Positions 469 through 23,987 of a DNA stretch of 39,438 bases are shown here, piece by piece. How positions within the stretch are numbered: the stretch's first letter is position 1; each line of letters starts with the position of its first letter. The position numbers and the translations under genes were made by a program. Location: NCBI RefSeq assembly GCF_003334335.1, contig NZ_QOWQ01000041.1. One strand, 5' to 3'. Under the pieces are notes generated by a model. It saw only the letters and a program-made list of their open reading frames with translations. It did not search any database and was not told the DNA's origin. The DNA is from Escherichia coli. GTDB lineage: Bacteria > Pseudomonadota > Gammaproteobacteria > Enterobacterales > Enterobacteriaceae.

Positions 469-1052
469 TGGCATTCAGAATGAGTGAACAACCACGGACC
501 ATAAAAATTTATAATCTGCTGGCCGGAACTAATGAATTTATTGGTGAAGGTGACGCATATATTCCGCCTCATACAGGTCTGCCAGCAAACAGTACCGATA
601 TTGCACCACCAGATATTCCTGCTGGCTTTGTGGCTGTTTTCAACAGTGATGAGGCATCGTGGCATCTCGTTGAAGACCATCGGGGTAAAACGGTTTATGA
701 CGTAGCGTCAGGGGACGAGTTATTTATTTCTGAACTCGGTCCGTTACCGGAAAATGTTACCTGGTTATCGCCGGAAGGGGAGTTTCAGAAGTGGAACGGC
801 ACAGCCTGGGTGAAGGATACGGAAGCAGAAAAAATGTTCCGGATCCGGGAGGCGGAAGAAACAAAAAACAACCTGATGCAGGTAGCCAGTGAGCATATTG
901 CGCCGCTTCAGGATGCTGCAGATCTGGAAATTGCAACGGAGGAAGAAACCTCATTGCTGGAAGCCTGGAAAAAGTATCGGGTGTTGCTGAACCGTGTTGA
1001 TACATCAACTGCACCTGATATTGAGTGGCCTACGAACCCTGTCAGGGAGTAA
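468..1052 (+). CDS. tfa: Tail fibre assembly protein (lambda Tfa-like chaperone)
   Basis: 194-aa ORF; [54 protein letters not shown]... is near-identical to lambda Tfa as I recall it. ATG overlaps the stf stop (TAATG), suggesting translational coupling. Confidence 0.9.
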
Positions 1053-1101
1053 TCATTGGGATTATGCCGCAGCACGTCTTAAGCAAGAACGTGCTGCGGT
1101 T
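888..1101 (+). repeat. Direct repeat copy A (tfa 3' end plus downstream hairpin)
   Basis: About 214 bp, roughly 85-90% identical by eye to 1937-2150, same orientation. Confidence 0.8.
1067..1099. terminator. Hairpin between convergent tfa and methyltransferase genes
   Basis: Perfect 11-bp stem ccgcagcacgt / acgtgctgcgg with an 11-nt loop. A T-run follows on the + strand after about 10 nt (tattttttcc), so intrinsic-terminator function is plausible but not classic. Confidence 0.5.
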
Positions 1102-1106
1102 GGATG

Positions 1107-1775
1107 CTATTTTTTCCCTGAAGCGGAAAACATTACTACAGTACCTTGAACCTTGGTTTTAACATTCTCGAAATGCTCTGAGAGTATATGTGTTAAGCCT
1201 TCTTCGGAATCTTTTGTGTTTGAAAAGATGCCTTTCTGATTGTAAATGCGCATCAGTTTTTGACCGAAGCTATTGTGCACAACTCCATCGCCAAGAATTG
1301 TGGCTCCGTATAGAGTTCCATCGTCAGTTAAGGCCTGCGCCGCATTGCGTATTACACAGCTTTTTGTAGATATATTTCCAGGCAGGCAGTGAAGAAGGTA
1401 AAACATGGAAATGGAATCAAATTGACCATGTAACGCCGCGGGATAAGGTTCAAAAACATCATGGCTAATTTTATGTTTAATTTTTGATTCCCCAGCCCTT
1501 GTAGATGCCGCGTTCAGGCTAGCTTCGTTCAAATCCATTAAAGATATCAGACTACTCTCAGGTACGTGAGTAAGGTAAAACCCAGTTCCAACACCAATAT
1601 CCAGATGGTTGTTACCTACATGTTCCAGATAGTGTGGAAGAAGGTGTTCCTTTGTAGGACATCCCCATGCAAGCCGATTTGATACTCCCAAAACCCACCA
1701 GTCATAAAGCTTTAGGGTAAGTGGTGTGTAAATTTTAGCCCCATCATCTGTGTTTTTTTTCATTGATTTCACCAT
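1107..1775 (-). CDS. Class I SAM-dependent methyltransferase-like protein (prophage cargo, substrate unknown)
   Basis: 222-aa ORF with a glycine-rich motif I (LDIGVGTGFY) followed by acidic/hydrophobic motifs (SISMFYLLHCLPG, LTDDGTLYGATILG) typical of the Rossmann-fold MTase superfamily. No DPPY/NPPY or PCQ DNA-MTase motif. Looks AT-richer than the core genes. Start may be the first ATG or the MKKNT ATG. Confidence 0.65.
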   Translation of the reverse strand: MVKSMKKNTDDGAKIYTPLTLKLYDWWVLGVSNRLAWGCPTKEHLLPHYLEHVGNNHLDIGVGTGFYLTHVPESSLISLMDLNEASLNAASTRAGESKIKHKISHDVFEPYPAALHGQFDSISMFYLLHCLPGNISTKSCVIRNAAQALTDDGTLYGATILGDGVVHNSFGQKLMRIYNQKGIFSNTKDSEEGLTHILSEHFENVKTKVQGTVVMFSASGKK

Positions 1776-1936
1776 GTTATAGTTTTATTTGTGAATTAAA
1801 TCAATTATGGCGATGAATTACAAGGGGTTAAATGCTGCCGCAGCATAGCGATATTGAAATAGCCTGGTATGCTTCGATACAGCAGGAGACGAATGGCTGG
1901 AAGACCGTCACCACACAGTTCTACATCCAGGAATTC

Positions 1937-2100
1937 AGTGAGTATATTGCGCCACTGCAGGATGCTGTAGATCTGGAAATCGCAACGGAGGAAGAAAGAT
2001 CGTTGCTGGAGGCATGGAATAAATATCGGGTATTGTTGAATCGTGTTGATACATCAACTGCACCGATATTGAGTGGCCTGCAAATCCTGTCAGGGAGTAA
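1937..2100 (+). pseudogene. Tail fibre assembly gene 3' remnant with frameshift
   Basis: Encodes ...[43 protein letters not shown], homologous to the Tfa C-terminus. A 1-nt deletion (cacctgat to caccgat) shifts the frame before the conserved DIEWP end. No N-terminal tfa sequence upstream. Confidence 0.8.
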
Positions 2101-2150
2101 TCATTGGGATTATGCCGCAGACACGTCGTATGCAGGAACGTGCTGCGGTT
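1937..2150 (+). repeat. Direct repeat copy B (degraded tfa 3' end plus hairpin)
   Basis: Matches 888-1101; hairpin stem retained with mismatches. Confidence 0.8.
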
Positions 2151-2214
2151 AGTTTGTAAGCTTTCGATAGTGGTTGTTATTTTTGCCCTTATTTGTTCCG
2201 GAGGCCATGGTTCA

Positions 2215-2385
2215 ATGGTCCGTCTGCCCCCTGTGGTGATGTCAGCAAAATCAGCCACTGCGCGAACCACAATAGCCCGGGAAGATGCTGAAGATCACCA
2301 GGTAAAGCTGTCAGCGCAGAAACTGGAAGAACTGCTCGCATCAATGGTTAAGGATGAGGTTGATCGCAATGATGGGATTTATTGA
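2215..2385 (+). CDS. Hypothetical small protein (57 aa) in prophage terminal region
   Basis: ATG at 2215 preceded by GGAGG about 10 nt upstream; a T-run lies about 90 nt downstream (2478-2486). No recognisable motif; coding status uncertain. Confidence 0.3.
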   Translation: MVRLPPVVMSAKSATARTTIAREDAEDHQVKLSAQKLEELLASMVKDEVDRNDGIY

Positions 2386-2698
2386 CGTCAGCGAGAGCAG
2401 AAGGAAGAACTGAATAACCTGAATGATTTACGCTCAATCAGAGCGATGATGATTGGCAGTAATTAGCGGTCAATTTCGGTTTTTTTGGCTGTGCGCTCCC
2501 CGCCCAGCATTGCGCGTCAATTAGCCCCCAAAAAAACGAAAAAGTTACAATCAAGTAAAAAATTCCTTCTGCAAAACTAAAAAAGATTTCAATAAAATCA
2601 GACAGTTAAAAACATAAAAAAAGGTACAAAAAAAACATCTCAAAGTCTTGTTTTTTGCTTCAAATACAATTGGTTATTGTGTTTTTTGAAACCTACCA

Positions 2699-2815
2699 GT
2701 GTGGTACATGGATATCGATACCACCGCCAATTATAAGCTGGGCGGTGCACAGCAACACGATAGCGTACGCCTCGATCCGTGGGTGTTTATGTTCTCAGCA
2801 GGATATCGTTTTTAA
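2699..2815 (+). pseudogene. ompW: ompW 3' remnant (last ~38 codons), 5' part displaced by prophage
   Basis: Frame gives VWYMDIDTTANYKLGGAQQHDSVRLDPWVFMFSAGYRF-stop, matching the OmpW C-terminus as I recall it. Upstream sequence in this frame hits a stop and does not resemble ompW. Sits about 60 bp from the convergent yciE end, as in K-12. Confidence 0.85.
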
Positions 2816-2829
2816 TTCCGCACAAAAAC

Positions 2830-2850
2830 GACCCCGTAATATACGGGGTC
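2830..2850. terminator. Intrinsic terminator of the yciGFE operon (shared with ompW remnant)
   Basis: Stem gaccccgt / acggggtc, 5-nt loop; on the - strand it is followed by GTTTTTGTG. Confidence 0.7.
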
Positions 2851-2874
2851 AATAAGGACATGGTATAAAGGGTA

Positions 2875-3381
2875 TTATTTCTTCGCTTCTACGCCATCAG
2901 TTTCAGAGCGAATTAAAAATTTCTCAGTTGTTTGCGGAATATTCTGAATCAGCCAGTCGGCCATTTGCTTTTCCTCATTTAAAATCGCTTCGATGGTTGG
3001 AATTGAAGCTGTATCACCGGCATTTTTTGCTGCTGCTAATAGTGAGGTGTAACAGGCGATTTCAAATTGCTCGAAGACATATCCGCTAATAGAGCCTTTG
3101 ACTATTTCATCAGAAGGGAATATACCACCGATTGACTGCCCAAGCGCAGCCATTTTACTCATGGAATCTTTAATGACTGAACGTGAAATGTCATTACGAT
3201 CAAGAATAGTTTCCAGTTGAACAATCTGGTTTTTGGTTTCACTAAGATGTTGTTCAATACGAGCGCGTAGTTCAGGATAATTATCTATACGGCTGGCCAT
3301 GGATTCAAGCATAGATTCGGCTTGCTTTTCCATTGCGTGGGCGTCACGTAACCAGTCATGATAATGTTCAATACGATTCAT
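2875..3381 (-). CDS. yciE: Ferritin-like DUF892 stress protein YciE
   Basis: 168 aa, MNRIEHYHDWLRDAHAMEKQAE... recognised as E. coli YciE. Confidence 0.93.
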   Translation of the reverse strand: MNRIEHYHDWLRDAHAMEKQAESMLESMASRIDNYPELRARIEQHLSETKNQIVQLETILDRNDISRSVIKDSMSKMAALGQSIGGIFPSDEIVKGSISGYVFEQFEIACYTSLLAAAKNAGDTASIPTIEAILNEEKQMADWLIQNIPQTTEKFLIRSETDGVEAKK

Positions 3382-11123: not shown

Positions 11124-11153
11124 CAAAAAAAAGCCCGCTCATTAGGCGGGCTG
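11124..11153 (-). terminator. trp attenuator (leader terminator 3:4 hairpin plus U-tract)
   Basis: - strand reads agcccgcctaatgagcgggct followed by TTTTTTTT, between trpL and trpE. Confidence 0.9.
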
Positions 11154-11194
11154 GGTATCTGATTGCTTTACGCATGGTGAATACACTGCCCGTT

Positions 11195-11239
11195 TCAGGA
11201 AGTGCGCCACCAACCTTTCAGTACGAAAATTGCTTTCAT
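11195..11239 (-). CDS. trpL: trp operon leader peptide
   Basis: - strand ATG AAA GCA ATT TTC GTA CTG AAA GGT TGG TGG CGC ACT TCC TGA = [14 protein letters not shown] with tandem Trp codons. Confidence 0.92.
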
Positions 11240-23615: not shown

Positions 23616-23987
23616 TTATCATCATTCTTATTACCCATTTTTAATGAATTAAAGGGCTTTTAATACACCGCAGCAATAACAGCTTGAGTTATCTCAACAC
23701 AAAATAATAACCGTTAAGGGTGTAGCCTATGATCAACACAAATATGAAATATTGGTCCTGGATGGGCGCGTTTTCTCTGTCGATGCTCTTCTGGGCCGAA
23801 CTCCTCTGGATCATTACTCACTGATCCTTGACCCCGCTGCGGCGGGGTTGTCATTTGCTTTGCCACAAGGTTTCTCCTCTTTTATCAATTTGGGTTGTTA
23901 TCAAATCGTTACGCGATGTTTGTGTTATCTTTAATATTCACCCTGAAGAGAATCAGGGCTTCGCAACCCTGTCATTAAGGAGGAGCT

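What the first reader, a model, noticed from the sequence alone, without database searches (positions are those of the whole stretch)
2386..2710. Prophage right junction (attR) inside ompW
Homology to ompW begins abruptly at about 2697-2699 (encoding ...VWYMDIDTTANYKLGG... to the stop at 2815). Everything upstream is AT-rich, A-tract-rich non-ompW DNA following lambda-like stf-tfa. The simplest reading is a lambdoid prophage integrated within the ompW coding sequence, with attR at about 2690-2710. The AT-rich stretch 2520-2690 with phased A-tracts looks like an att arm with IHF/Int-type sites; short repeated motifs AATTAGC / GTCAATT occur at 2461-2475 and 2516-2525.
Basis: partly seen in the sequence, partly recalled or inferred. 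Interest (0 to 1): 0.5.

Follow-up and report, generated by a model that had tools for sequence, protein, structure and literature searches.

The report
Known prophage junction (attR) in ompW
This is the right-hand junction of a common, already published lambda-like prophage (PPompW) that sits in the E. coli ompW gene; it is ordinary, except that the phage brings its own replacement end for ompW, so the gene is rewritten rather than broken.

Summary
Identity to uninterrupted K-12 ompW starts exactly at window 2697 and is 100% from there on. A strain with an identical junction (DA33133) has the partner attL about 50 kb upstream. That attL carries a full-length lambda Int homologue (E 1e-55) and an excisionase.

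attL and attR share a 28-bp core at 2697-2724, which contains the inverted repeat GTGGTA/TACCAC. Bases 2553-2696 are the phage P arm, the most AT-rich stretch of the window at 24% GC. It holds one arm-type motif, CTGCAAAAC (2569-2577), which also occurs three times in tandem in the P' arm next to int. It also holds one IHF consensus (2596-2608). Both motifs are conserved in four diverged P arms.

- 2386-2466 is the tail of a DUF4376 pseudogene.
- The AATTAGC/GTCAATT motifs lie outside the att arm and are no better than chance.
- A-tract phasing is not supported.
- ompW is not inactivated. The phage supplies a diverged in-frame 3' end, so attL carries a complete chimeric ompW.

The element is the published PPompW family (PMC8112680), so it is already known. 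As a side observation, the phage-borne end changes the OmpW segment reported elsewhere as the hypervariable region HVR1.

The parts
2197..2466 (+). DUF4376-domain (tail-fibre-associated) pseudogene with an internal stop at 2383-2385. The finding's first 81 bases (2386-2466) are its 3' end.
   Evidence: PGAP annotation of the identical sequence in DA33133 (L001 20098-20367, 'internal stop'). Alignment to the intact gene of STEC306, where CGC replaces TGA and the frame continues to the stop inside AGTAATTAG.
2467..2546 (.). Conserved 3' flank of the DUF4376 gene at 58% GC. It is not part of the att arm.
   Evidence: Conserved in STEC306 and UTAK-3, where it follows DUF4376 but is not next to ompW. 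Absent from the O145 PPompW and U15A attR junctions. The fold is no better than shuffles, z -0.15 and -0.5.
2553..2696 (+). P arm of attR, the phage-derived arm. It is AT-rich and runs about 160 bp to the core dyad.
   Evidence: Lowest-GC stretch of the window. Homology among four diverged P arms (window, U15A, UTAK-3, O145 PPompW_132418) starts about 15 bp left of the arm-type motif and ends at 2696.
2567..2577 (+). Candidate arm-type Int site TTCTGCAAAAC (P1-like), 135-145 bp left of the core dyad.
   Evidence: CTGCAAAAC occurs twice in the 39-kb window and one copy lies here. It occurs three times in tandem, in the same orientation, in the P' arm between the ompW stop and the int stop (L002 9020-9052; 2 of 100 shuffles give three matches). 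The motif is invariant in all four P-arm variants while its flanks vary.
2596..2608 (+). IHF consensus AATCAGACAGTTA (WATCARNNNNTTR), preceded by an A/T-rich element (H1-like).
   Evidence: Only match in 2386-2730, and six in the whole window. The consensus positions are kept in all four variants (AATCAGGCAGTTA, AATCAATAGGTTA, AATCAATCAGTTA) while the N positions vary.
2697..2724 (+). Common core CAGTGTGGTACATGGATATCGATACCAC, identical in attR, attL and attB. Strand exchange must occur inside it. It contains the inverted repeat GTGGTA (2701-2706) / TACCAC (2719-2724), the candidate core-type Int sites.
   Evidence: Three-way ungapped comparison. In U15A the attL/attR identity is 24 bp, equivalent to 2699-2722, which narrows the crossover interval.
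2725..2815 (+). Displaced native 3' end of ompW (B' side). With the core it encodes the last 38 codons. It is a promoterless, headless pseudogene fragment.
   Evidence: 100% identical to K-12 ompW. Annotated 'OmpW family outer membrane protein, incomplete, missing N-terminus' in DA33133. Window 2697-2817 corresponds to the published 121-bp PPompW att duplication.
2829..2851 (.). Native hairpin between the convergent ompW and yciE genes (GACCCCGTATATTACGGGGTC). It is host DNA and stays with the remnant.
   Evidence: Terminator-like scan. Identical in K-12.

Best explanation
Window 2553-2815 is attR (P-O-B') of a PPompW-type lambda-like prophage that entered the E. coli chromosome by Int-mediated site-specific recombination inside the ompW coding sequence, at about codon 174 of 212.

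The phage attP carries three things:
- an AT-rich P arm of about 145 bp, with one distal arm-type Int site and an IHF site;
- a core of about 24-28 bp identical to ompW, with inverted core-type sites;
- a P' arm made of a diverged, in-frame copy of the last 30 ompW codons, followed by three tandem arm-type sites and then int.

Recombination within the core puts the phage-borne ompW end onto the host gene at attL, giving a complete chimeric ompW. It leaves the native 3' end, with no promoter or 5' part, next to the P arm at attR, which is what the window shows. Excision by Int, Xis and IHF across the two cores would restore native ompW.

Shown here: the junction, the core, the attL partner, the Int homology, and the presence and conservation of the motifs.
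Inferred: that Int and IHF bind these motifs, and where exactly the strands are cut.
For: - Breakpoint at 2697, with 100% K-12 identity to its right.
- DA33133 has a 100% identical junction. Upstream of it lies a full lambda-like gene set, and at the far end ompW (212 aa), int and xis.
- The attL/attR/attB core is 28 bp. The phage copy beyond it is 71% identical over 91 bp, has the same length and the same stop position.
- Int aligns with lambda Int over residues 14-375 (E 1e-55), including the N-terminal arm-binding part and the catalytic R, K, H, R, H and Y.
- CTGCAAAAC occurs once in the P arm and three times in the P' arm, all in one orientation.
- The IHF consensus and the arm motif are conserved in four P arms that are otherwise about 77% identical.
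- The attL segment is 99.5% identical to GenBank records named PPompW, which annotate the 'duplication due to insertion'.
- Nakamura et al. 2021 (PMC8112680) report a 121-bp attL/R, PCR detection of the excised circle, and PPompW in 44% of 767 complete genomes.
- In the 5,426 complete genomes searched here, the window-type attR is in 561 and the attL in about 1,560-1,715.
Against: - The window does not contain attL or int. They are taken from genomes with an identical or near-identical junction, not from the window's own genome.
- Only one arm-type site and one IHF site were found in the P arm. No lambda-like P2, Xis, Fis or H2 equivalents and no IHF site in the P' arm were recognised.
- Protein binding was not tested.
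- Many PPompW prophages are reported to be defective, so this attR may no longer be used.
Confidence: 0.95

Rival explanations
1. The junction is a fossil: a dead scar of a decayed prophage whose att arm no longer works, so the AT-rich tract is inert leftover DNA.
For: - The neighbouring phage genes are decayed: DUF4376 has an internal stop, tfa' is a fragment, and stf is split in DA33133.
- The PPompW paper calls many of these prophages defective.
Against: - The core is intact and identical in attL and attR.
- int and xis are full-length in DA33133.
- The arm-type and IHF motifs are conserved across P arms about 77% identical.
- Excised circles were detected for O145:H28 PPompW.
- This rival concerns present activity only. 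It does not change what the sequence is.
Confidence: 0.3
2. The ompW break arose by illegitimate recombination or deletion next to a phage-derived island, not by site-specific integration.
For: The window alone shows only one junction.
Against: - The same base-exact junction recurs in 561 genomes of many lineages.
- It is always paired with an attL carrying the same core.
- Homology in an unrelated prophage (UTAK-3) stops at the same boundary.
Confidence: 0.01
3. The AT-rich tract 2531-2696 is mainly a regulatory or promoter region, or encodes a small RNA, rather than an att arm.
For: AT-rich, curved DNA is typical of promoters and H-NS targets.
Against: - No promoter-like site lies inside it. 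Only one was found in 2000-3000, at 2473-2446 on the minus strand, which is fewer than shuffles give.
- No Rfam match at E<=1.
- No ORF of note.
- Its boundaries coincide with those of the P-arm homology.
Confidence: 0.04

Closest known systems
PPompW prophages of E. coli (Nakamura et al. 2021, PLoS Pathog, PMC8112680; GenBank LC567822 and relatives)
   Same: - Same integration site in ompW.
- Same 121-bp att duplication (window 2697-2817).
- The attL/int segment is 99.5% identical in DA33133.
- Lambda-like structural genes.
- Wide distribution in E. coli.
   Different: - The right end differs. O145:H28 PPompW carries effector genes (espM, nleG) and an internal 21-bp attB before the P arm. The window has stf-tfa, a methyltransferase cassette and a DUF4376 pseudogene, and lacks the 21-bp site.
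- Its P arm is only about 75% identical to the O145 one.
Bacteriophage lambda attP/attR (Landy model; own knowledge)
   Same: - A heterobivalent Int homologue.
- A P arm of about 150-160 bp, with a distal arm-type site in the same orientation as three tandem P' sites, followed by an IHF site.
- Inverted core-type sites around the crossover.
- int and xis next to P'.
   Different: - A different arm motif (CTGCAAAAC against lambda's CAGTCACTAT type) and a different core.
- The P' arm sites lie at about +107 to +141, against about +50 to +85 in lambda, because 91 bp of surrogate ompW coding sequence sit between the core and the sites.
- No P2, Xis, Fis, H2 or H' equivalents were identified.
- The target is inside a gene, not intergenic.
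Phage 21 / e14 integration into icd (own knowledge: attP carries a substitute 3' end of icd)
   Same: A lambdoid Int integrates inside the 3' part of a host gene and supplies an in-frame diverged replacement, so the gene stays functional and lysogens carry a variant allele end.
   Different: The target here is an outer-membrane protein. The replaced segment includes its reported hypervariable region, which is inferred to be surface-exposed, so the replacement could change a surface property. Replacements in icd are largely neutral.

Membership tests
Lambda-type attR (P-O-B') of a heterobivalent tyrosine integrase | A short core identical in attL, attR and the empty attB | tested here: met
   28 bp at window 2697-2724 = L002 8895-8922 = K-12 ompW. 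The identity is 24 bp in U15A.
Lambda-type attR (P-O-B') of a heterobivalent tyrosine integrase | A tyrosine integrase with an N-terminal arm-binding domain, plus an excisionase, encoded next to the partner attL | tested here: met
   In DA33133, not in the window. The 376-aa Int aligns with lambda Int residues 12-354 at E 1e-55 and keeps the catalytic residues. PGAP annotates an 'Arm DNA-binding domain' integrase and an excisionase.
Lambda-type attR (P-O-B') of a heterobivalent tyrosine integrase | Arm-type repeats, different from the core, in both arms | tested here: met
   CTGCAAAAC occurs once in the P arm (2569-2577) and three times in the P' arm (L002 9020-9052), all in the same orientation, and is conserved in four P-arm and four P'-arm variants. 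Binding was not tested.
Lambda-type attR (P-O-B') of a heterobivalent tyrosine integrase | IHF sites that bend the arms | tested here: inconclusive
   One conserved consensus lies in the P arm (2596-2608). None was found near the core or in the P' arm with WATCARNNNNTTR or the relaxed pattern.
Lambda-type attR (P-O-B') of a heterobivalent tyrosine integrase | Inverted core-type sites flanking the overlap region | tested here: met
   GTGGTA (2701-2706) and TACCAC (2719-2724), 12 bp apart, read directly from the sequence. The cleavage positions are unknown.
Lambda-type attR (P-O-B') of a heterobivalent tyrosine integrase | Int/Xis-dependent excision that regenerates attP and attB | not testable with these tools
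   Reported by PCR for O145:H28 PPompW (PMC8112680), but not for this strain.
PPompW prophage family | A lambda-like prophage in ompW bounded by the 121-bp duplication | tested here: met
   Window 2697-2817 against L002 8895-9015 is 78.5% identical. The GenBank PPompW records mark the same repeat. Lambda-like head and tail genes are present.
PPompW prophage family | An integrase more than 90% identical to that of strain 112648 (the paper's criterion) | tested here: inconclusive
   Only the 3' 400 bp of int plus the P' arm were compared. They are 99.5% identical to eleven PPompW records. The window's own int was not available.
Integration with replacement of a gene's 3' end (phage 21/e14-icd type) | attP carries an in-frame substitute for the displaced gene end, so a full-length ORF remains at attL | tested here: met
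   A 212-aa ompW at attL in DA33133, SA53-3 and U15A, and a 217-aa one in HSP425.

The most novel reading that the evidence does not exclude
PPompW phages do not merely preserve ompW. Each variant installs its own version of the OmpW segment at residues 182-200, which is inferred to be the last surface loop (L4).

- The phage-borne ends differ precisely there. Examples are AKYKSGVTTVKDSVRL, ASYKFNGTPVKDSVRL and a version 5 aa longer, AKYKSDGRKLAKGSYSDNVRL. The flanking strands and the arm sites are conserved.
- The commonest phage version equals the 'HVR1_1' allele that a 2025 survey attributed to mosaic recombination. That paper never mentions prophages.
- In a spread sample of 45 of 5,232 matching records, the phage-type loop was never seen without the integrase next to it.

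The novel reading is that OmpW 'hypervariability' in E. coli is largely a read-out of PPompW lysogeny. It would be a reversible lysogenic conversion of a surface receptor (for colicin S4, TraN-alpha-mediated conjugation or OmpW-dependent phages) that may be selected for exclusion.
Probability: 0.35. Interest if true: 0.5.

Novelty: already known. Interest (0 to 1): 0.15.

Why it matters
For genome annotation, the 126-bp 'OmpW family' pseudogene next to yciE should be read as the footprint of a PPompW attR, not as loss of ompW. It also marks the exact right end of the prophage.

The att anatomy worked out here is not in the PPompW paper: the 24-28-bp crossover core, the limits of the P arm, the candidate arm-type motif CTGCAAAAC and the IHF site. 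It could guide excision assays or the use of this integrase as a tool.

The side observation links a published 'mosaic' OmpW hypervariable region to prophage integration. It would matter for OmpW-based typing, vaccine or antibody ideas, and receptor studies.

Tried and rejected
- **Hairpin at 2474-2542.** The T7...A7-flanked GC block could have been a terminator or a sib-like RNase III site. It folds no better than shuffles on either strand (z -0.15 and -0.52), and the T-run precedes the stem on both strands, so it was rejected.
- **A-tract phasing.** There is no signal at 10.5 bp.
- **A second, inverted arm-type (P2-like) site.** No match with up to 3 mismatches in 2380-2730. The candidate GCAAAAAAC on the minus strand at 2650-2658 is not conserved in the other P arms.
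- **IHF sites near the core or in the P' arm.** None found.
- **Rfam.** Nothing in 2386-2815.
- **The 21-bp internal attB of O145 PPompW.** Absent from the window.
- **A sequenced free phage with the contiguous attP.** None in the phage collection. Only prophage-derived records matched.
- **AATTAGC/GTCAATT as att sites.** Rejected.
- **Protein comparison on the DUF4376 pseudogene.** It failed because of the internal stop. The DNA alignment was used instead.

Full report
**What is in the window.** The window opens in the tail-fibre region of a lambda-like prophage:
- stf C-terminus at 10-468 and tfa at 468-1052;
- a class I SAM methyltransferase on the minus strand at 1107-1775;
- a tfa fragment at 1832-2100;
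- a DUF4376-domain pseudogene at about 2197-2466.

It then runs into ordinary E. coli chromosome: the ompW 3' end, then yciE, yciF, yciG, trpABCDE and onwards.

**Checking the observation.**
- An ungapped comparison with uninterrupted K-12 ompW (L003) shows no similarity left of window 2697. Identity is 100% from 2697 through the ompW stop (2813-2815) and beyond.
- The AT-rich tract is real but narrower than stated. Bases 2531-2696 are 24% GC, the lowest 166-bp stretch in the whole window. Bases 2386-2466 are 43% GC and 2467-2530 are 58% GC.
- Bases 2386-2466 are not arm DNA. They are the end of the DUF4376 pseudogene. The TGA at 2383-2385 is an internal stop, which PGAP flags in the identical DA33133 sequence. 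The intact STEC306 homologue reads through it to a stop inside AGTAATTAG.
- The AATTAGC/GTCAATT motifs are at the stated coordinates, but 11% of shuffles give as many repeated 7-mers. They travel with the DUF4376 gene in loci that are not next to ompW (STEC306, UTAK-3). They are missing from two other attR junctions served by the same integrase (O145 PPompW_132418, U15A).
- A-tract phasing at the helical repeat is not supported.

**The partner junction.**
- Window 2100-2900 is 100% identical to twelve complete genomes. At least 80% of it is present in 561 of 5,426 complete E. coli genomes.
- In one of the identical genomes, DA33133, a complete lambda-like gene set lies upstream.
- About 50 kb to the left sit a full-length ompW (212 aa), a 376-aa integrase on the opposite strand, an excisionase and early genes.
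- attL, attR and attB share CAGTGTGGTACATGGATATCGATACCAC (window 2697-2724).
- To the right of this core, attL carries a phage-borne copy of the ompW end. It is 71% identical over 91 bp and has the same length, frame and stop position.
- So the prophage did integrate inside the ompW reading frame, but ompW is rebuilt as a host-phage chimera. The window holds the displaced native end.
- In U15A the host allele differs, and the attL/attR identity shrinks to 24 bp (equivalent to 2699-2722). This narrows the crossover interval.

**Anatomy of the arm.**
- The integrase is a full-length homologue of lambda Int (E 1e-55, residues 14-375 against 12-354). It includes the arm-binding N-terminus and the catalytic R, K, H, R, H and Y. 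Arm-type sites are therefore expected.
- Between the ompW stop and the int stop at attL there are three tandem copies of CTCTGCAAAAC (L002 9018-9052). The same motif, TTCTGCAAAAC, occurs once in the window's arm at 2567-2577, in the same orientation.
- Exact CTGCAAAAC is found only twice in the 39-kb window.
- The only IHF consensus in the region is AATCAGACAGTTA at 2596-2608.
- Four P arms were aligned: the window, U15A, O145:H28 PPompW_132418, and an orphan copy inside a different prophage in UTAK-3. They are about 77% identical. Homology begins about 15 bp left of the arm motif and ends at 2696.
- The arm motif is invariant across the four. The IHF consensus positions are kept while the N positions vary.
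- The core contains the inverted repeat GTGGTA (2701-2706) / TACCAC (2719-2724).
- Relative to its dyad, the arm site lies at -145 to -135, the IHF site at -116 to -104, and the three P' sites at +107 to +141.
- From my own knowledge of lambda, this matches its layout: a distal P1, then H1, and three tandem P' sites in the P1 orientation. The difference is that 91 bp of surrogate coding sequence lengthen the P' arm.
- I did not find equivalents of P2, Xis, Fis, H2 or H'.

**Mechanism.** The best-supported reading is standard Int/IHF integrative recombination between the phage attP and the ompW attB, with the crossover inside 2699-2722.
- attP reads, in order: P arm, core, surrogate ompW end, three arm sites, int.
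- The window shows the P-O-B' product.
- The junction, core, partner site, Int homology and motif conservation are shown here. Protein binding and the cut sites are inferred.

**What is already known.**
- This is the PPompW prophage family. Nakamura et al. 2021 (PMC8112680) reported lambda-like prophages in ompW with a 121-bp attL/R, confirmed attP by PCR on excised circles, and found PPompW in 44% of 767 complete genomes.
- GenBank records LC567822 and relatives annotate the 'duplication due to insertion of PPompW'. The DA33133 attL/int segment is 99.5% identical to them.
- The window's 2697-2817 is that 121-bp unit.
- Here the attL is present in about 1,560-1,715 of 5,426 genomes.
- The paper does not mention arm-type sites, IHF, a core, or the C-terminal replacement. 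Those details are additions, but unsurprising ones.
- The window's version differs from the O145 type at its right end. It has no effector genes and no 21-bp internal attB, and its P arm is diverged.

**Side observation.**
- The phage-borne ompW ends differ among PPompW variants exactly in residues 182-200. The flanking strands, the core and the arm sites stay conserved.
- A 2025 survey (PMC12175518) lists this segment as OmpW 'HVR1' with three types. Type HVR1_0 is the native K-12 end seen in the window. HVR1_1 is the DA33133/U15A phage-borne end. HVR1_2 is the native end displaced at U15A's attR.
- That paper does not mention prophages.
- In an evenly spaced sample of the 5,232 matching records, the phage-type end always had the integrase beside it. 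Records without an integrase matched only the conserved last strand. The sample would miss a class smaller than about 100 records.
- That this segment is the last extracellular loop is inferred from the eight-strand topology and from N142 lying in loop 3. It was not tested here.

**Verdict.** The finding is real, and its interpretation is correct in the main. The element is already described, so interest is low. The refinements are the exact core, the limits of the arm, the candidate Int and IHF sites, the reassignment of 2386-2546, and the fact that ompW is rewritten rather than broken.

Noticed in passing
window 876-1116 and 1925-2165, flanking 1107-1775 (-): A class I SAM-dependent methyltransferase gene on the opposite strand is bracketed by direct repeats of about 240 nt of the tfa 3' end (77-95% identical). 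This looks like a cargo cassette inserted by duplication or recombination at tfa. The same cassette occurs in phages 2G7b and ev243.
   Followed up: partly
window 811-1009 and 1855-2058 (+): The Rfam family IS009 matches both copies of the tfa 3' end, at 223.8 bits (above gathering) and 112.3 bits (just below). This 'RNA family' therefore coincides with a tail-fibre-assembly coding sequence.
   Followed up: no
L002 8923-9013 (DA33133 attL); L008, L009, L010: The phage-supplied ompW 3' ends differ between PPompW variants only in OmpW residues 182-200, and one has a 5-codon insertion. They correspond to the published OmpW 'HVR1' types, which were attributed to mosaic evolution without any mention of prophages.
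   Followed up: partly
L002 9052-9076: At attL the phage supplies a terminator-like hairpin, CTGGTCAT-CAA-ATGACCAG followed by T6, just after the chimeric ompW and the three arm sites. It overlaps the last codons and the stop of the convergent int gene.
   Followed up: no
L004 3001-3317 (E. coli UTAK-3): A 77%-identical copy of the DUF4376 tail plus the whole P arm, with the arm motif and IHF site kept, lies inside a different prophage that has a contractile tail and sits between yjjG and prfC. It is about 2 kb from that prophage's end. Homology stops at the same base as the window's phage/host boundary, so it is an orphan att arm of unknown origin.
   Followed up: partly
L011 29689-31160 (E. 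coli U15A): The same integrase and P arm are present, but Rha- and ash-family genes lie between DUF4376 and the arm. The displaced host ompW end is the long-loop allele, and yciE, yciF and yciG are absent, so trpA follows directly.
   Followed up: partly
window 1067-1098 (+): A partial, sub-threshold match to the Shigella sRNA family CssrB (36 bits, model positions 149-180) lies just after the tfa stop, inside the repeated segment.
   Followed up: no
window 11125-11218 (-) and 23656-23858 (+): Expected host RNA elements: the trp operon leader and the enterobacterial sRNA STnc180. Both are ordinary.
   Followed up: no
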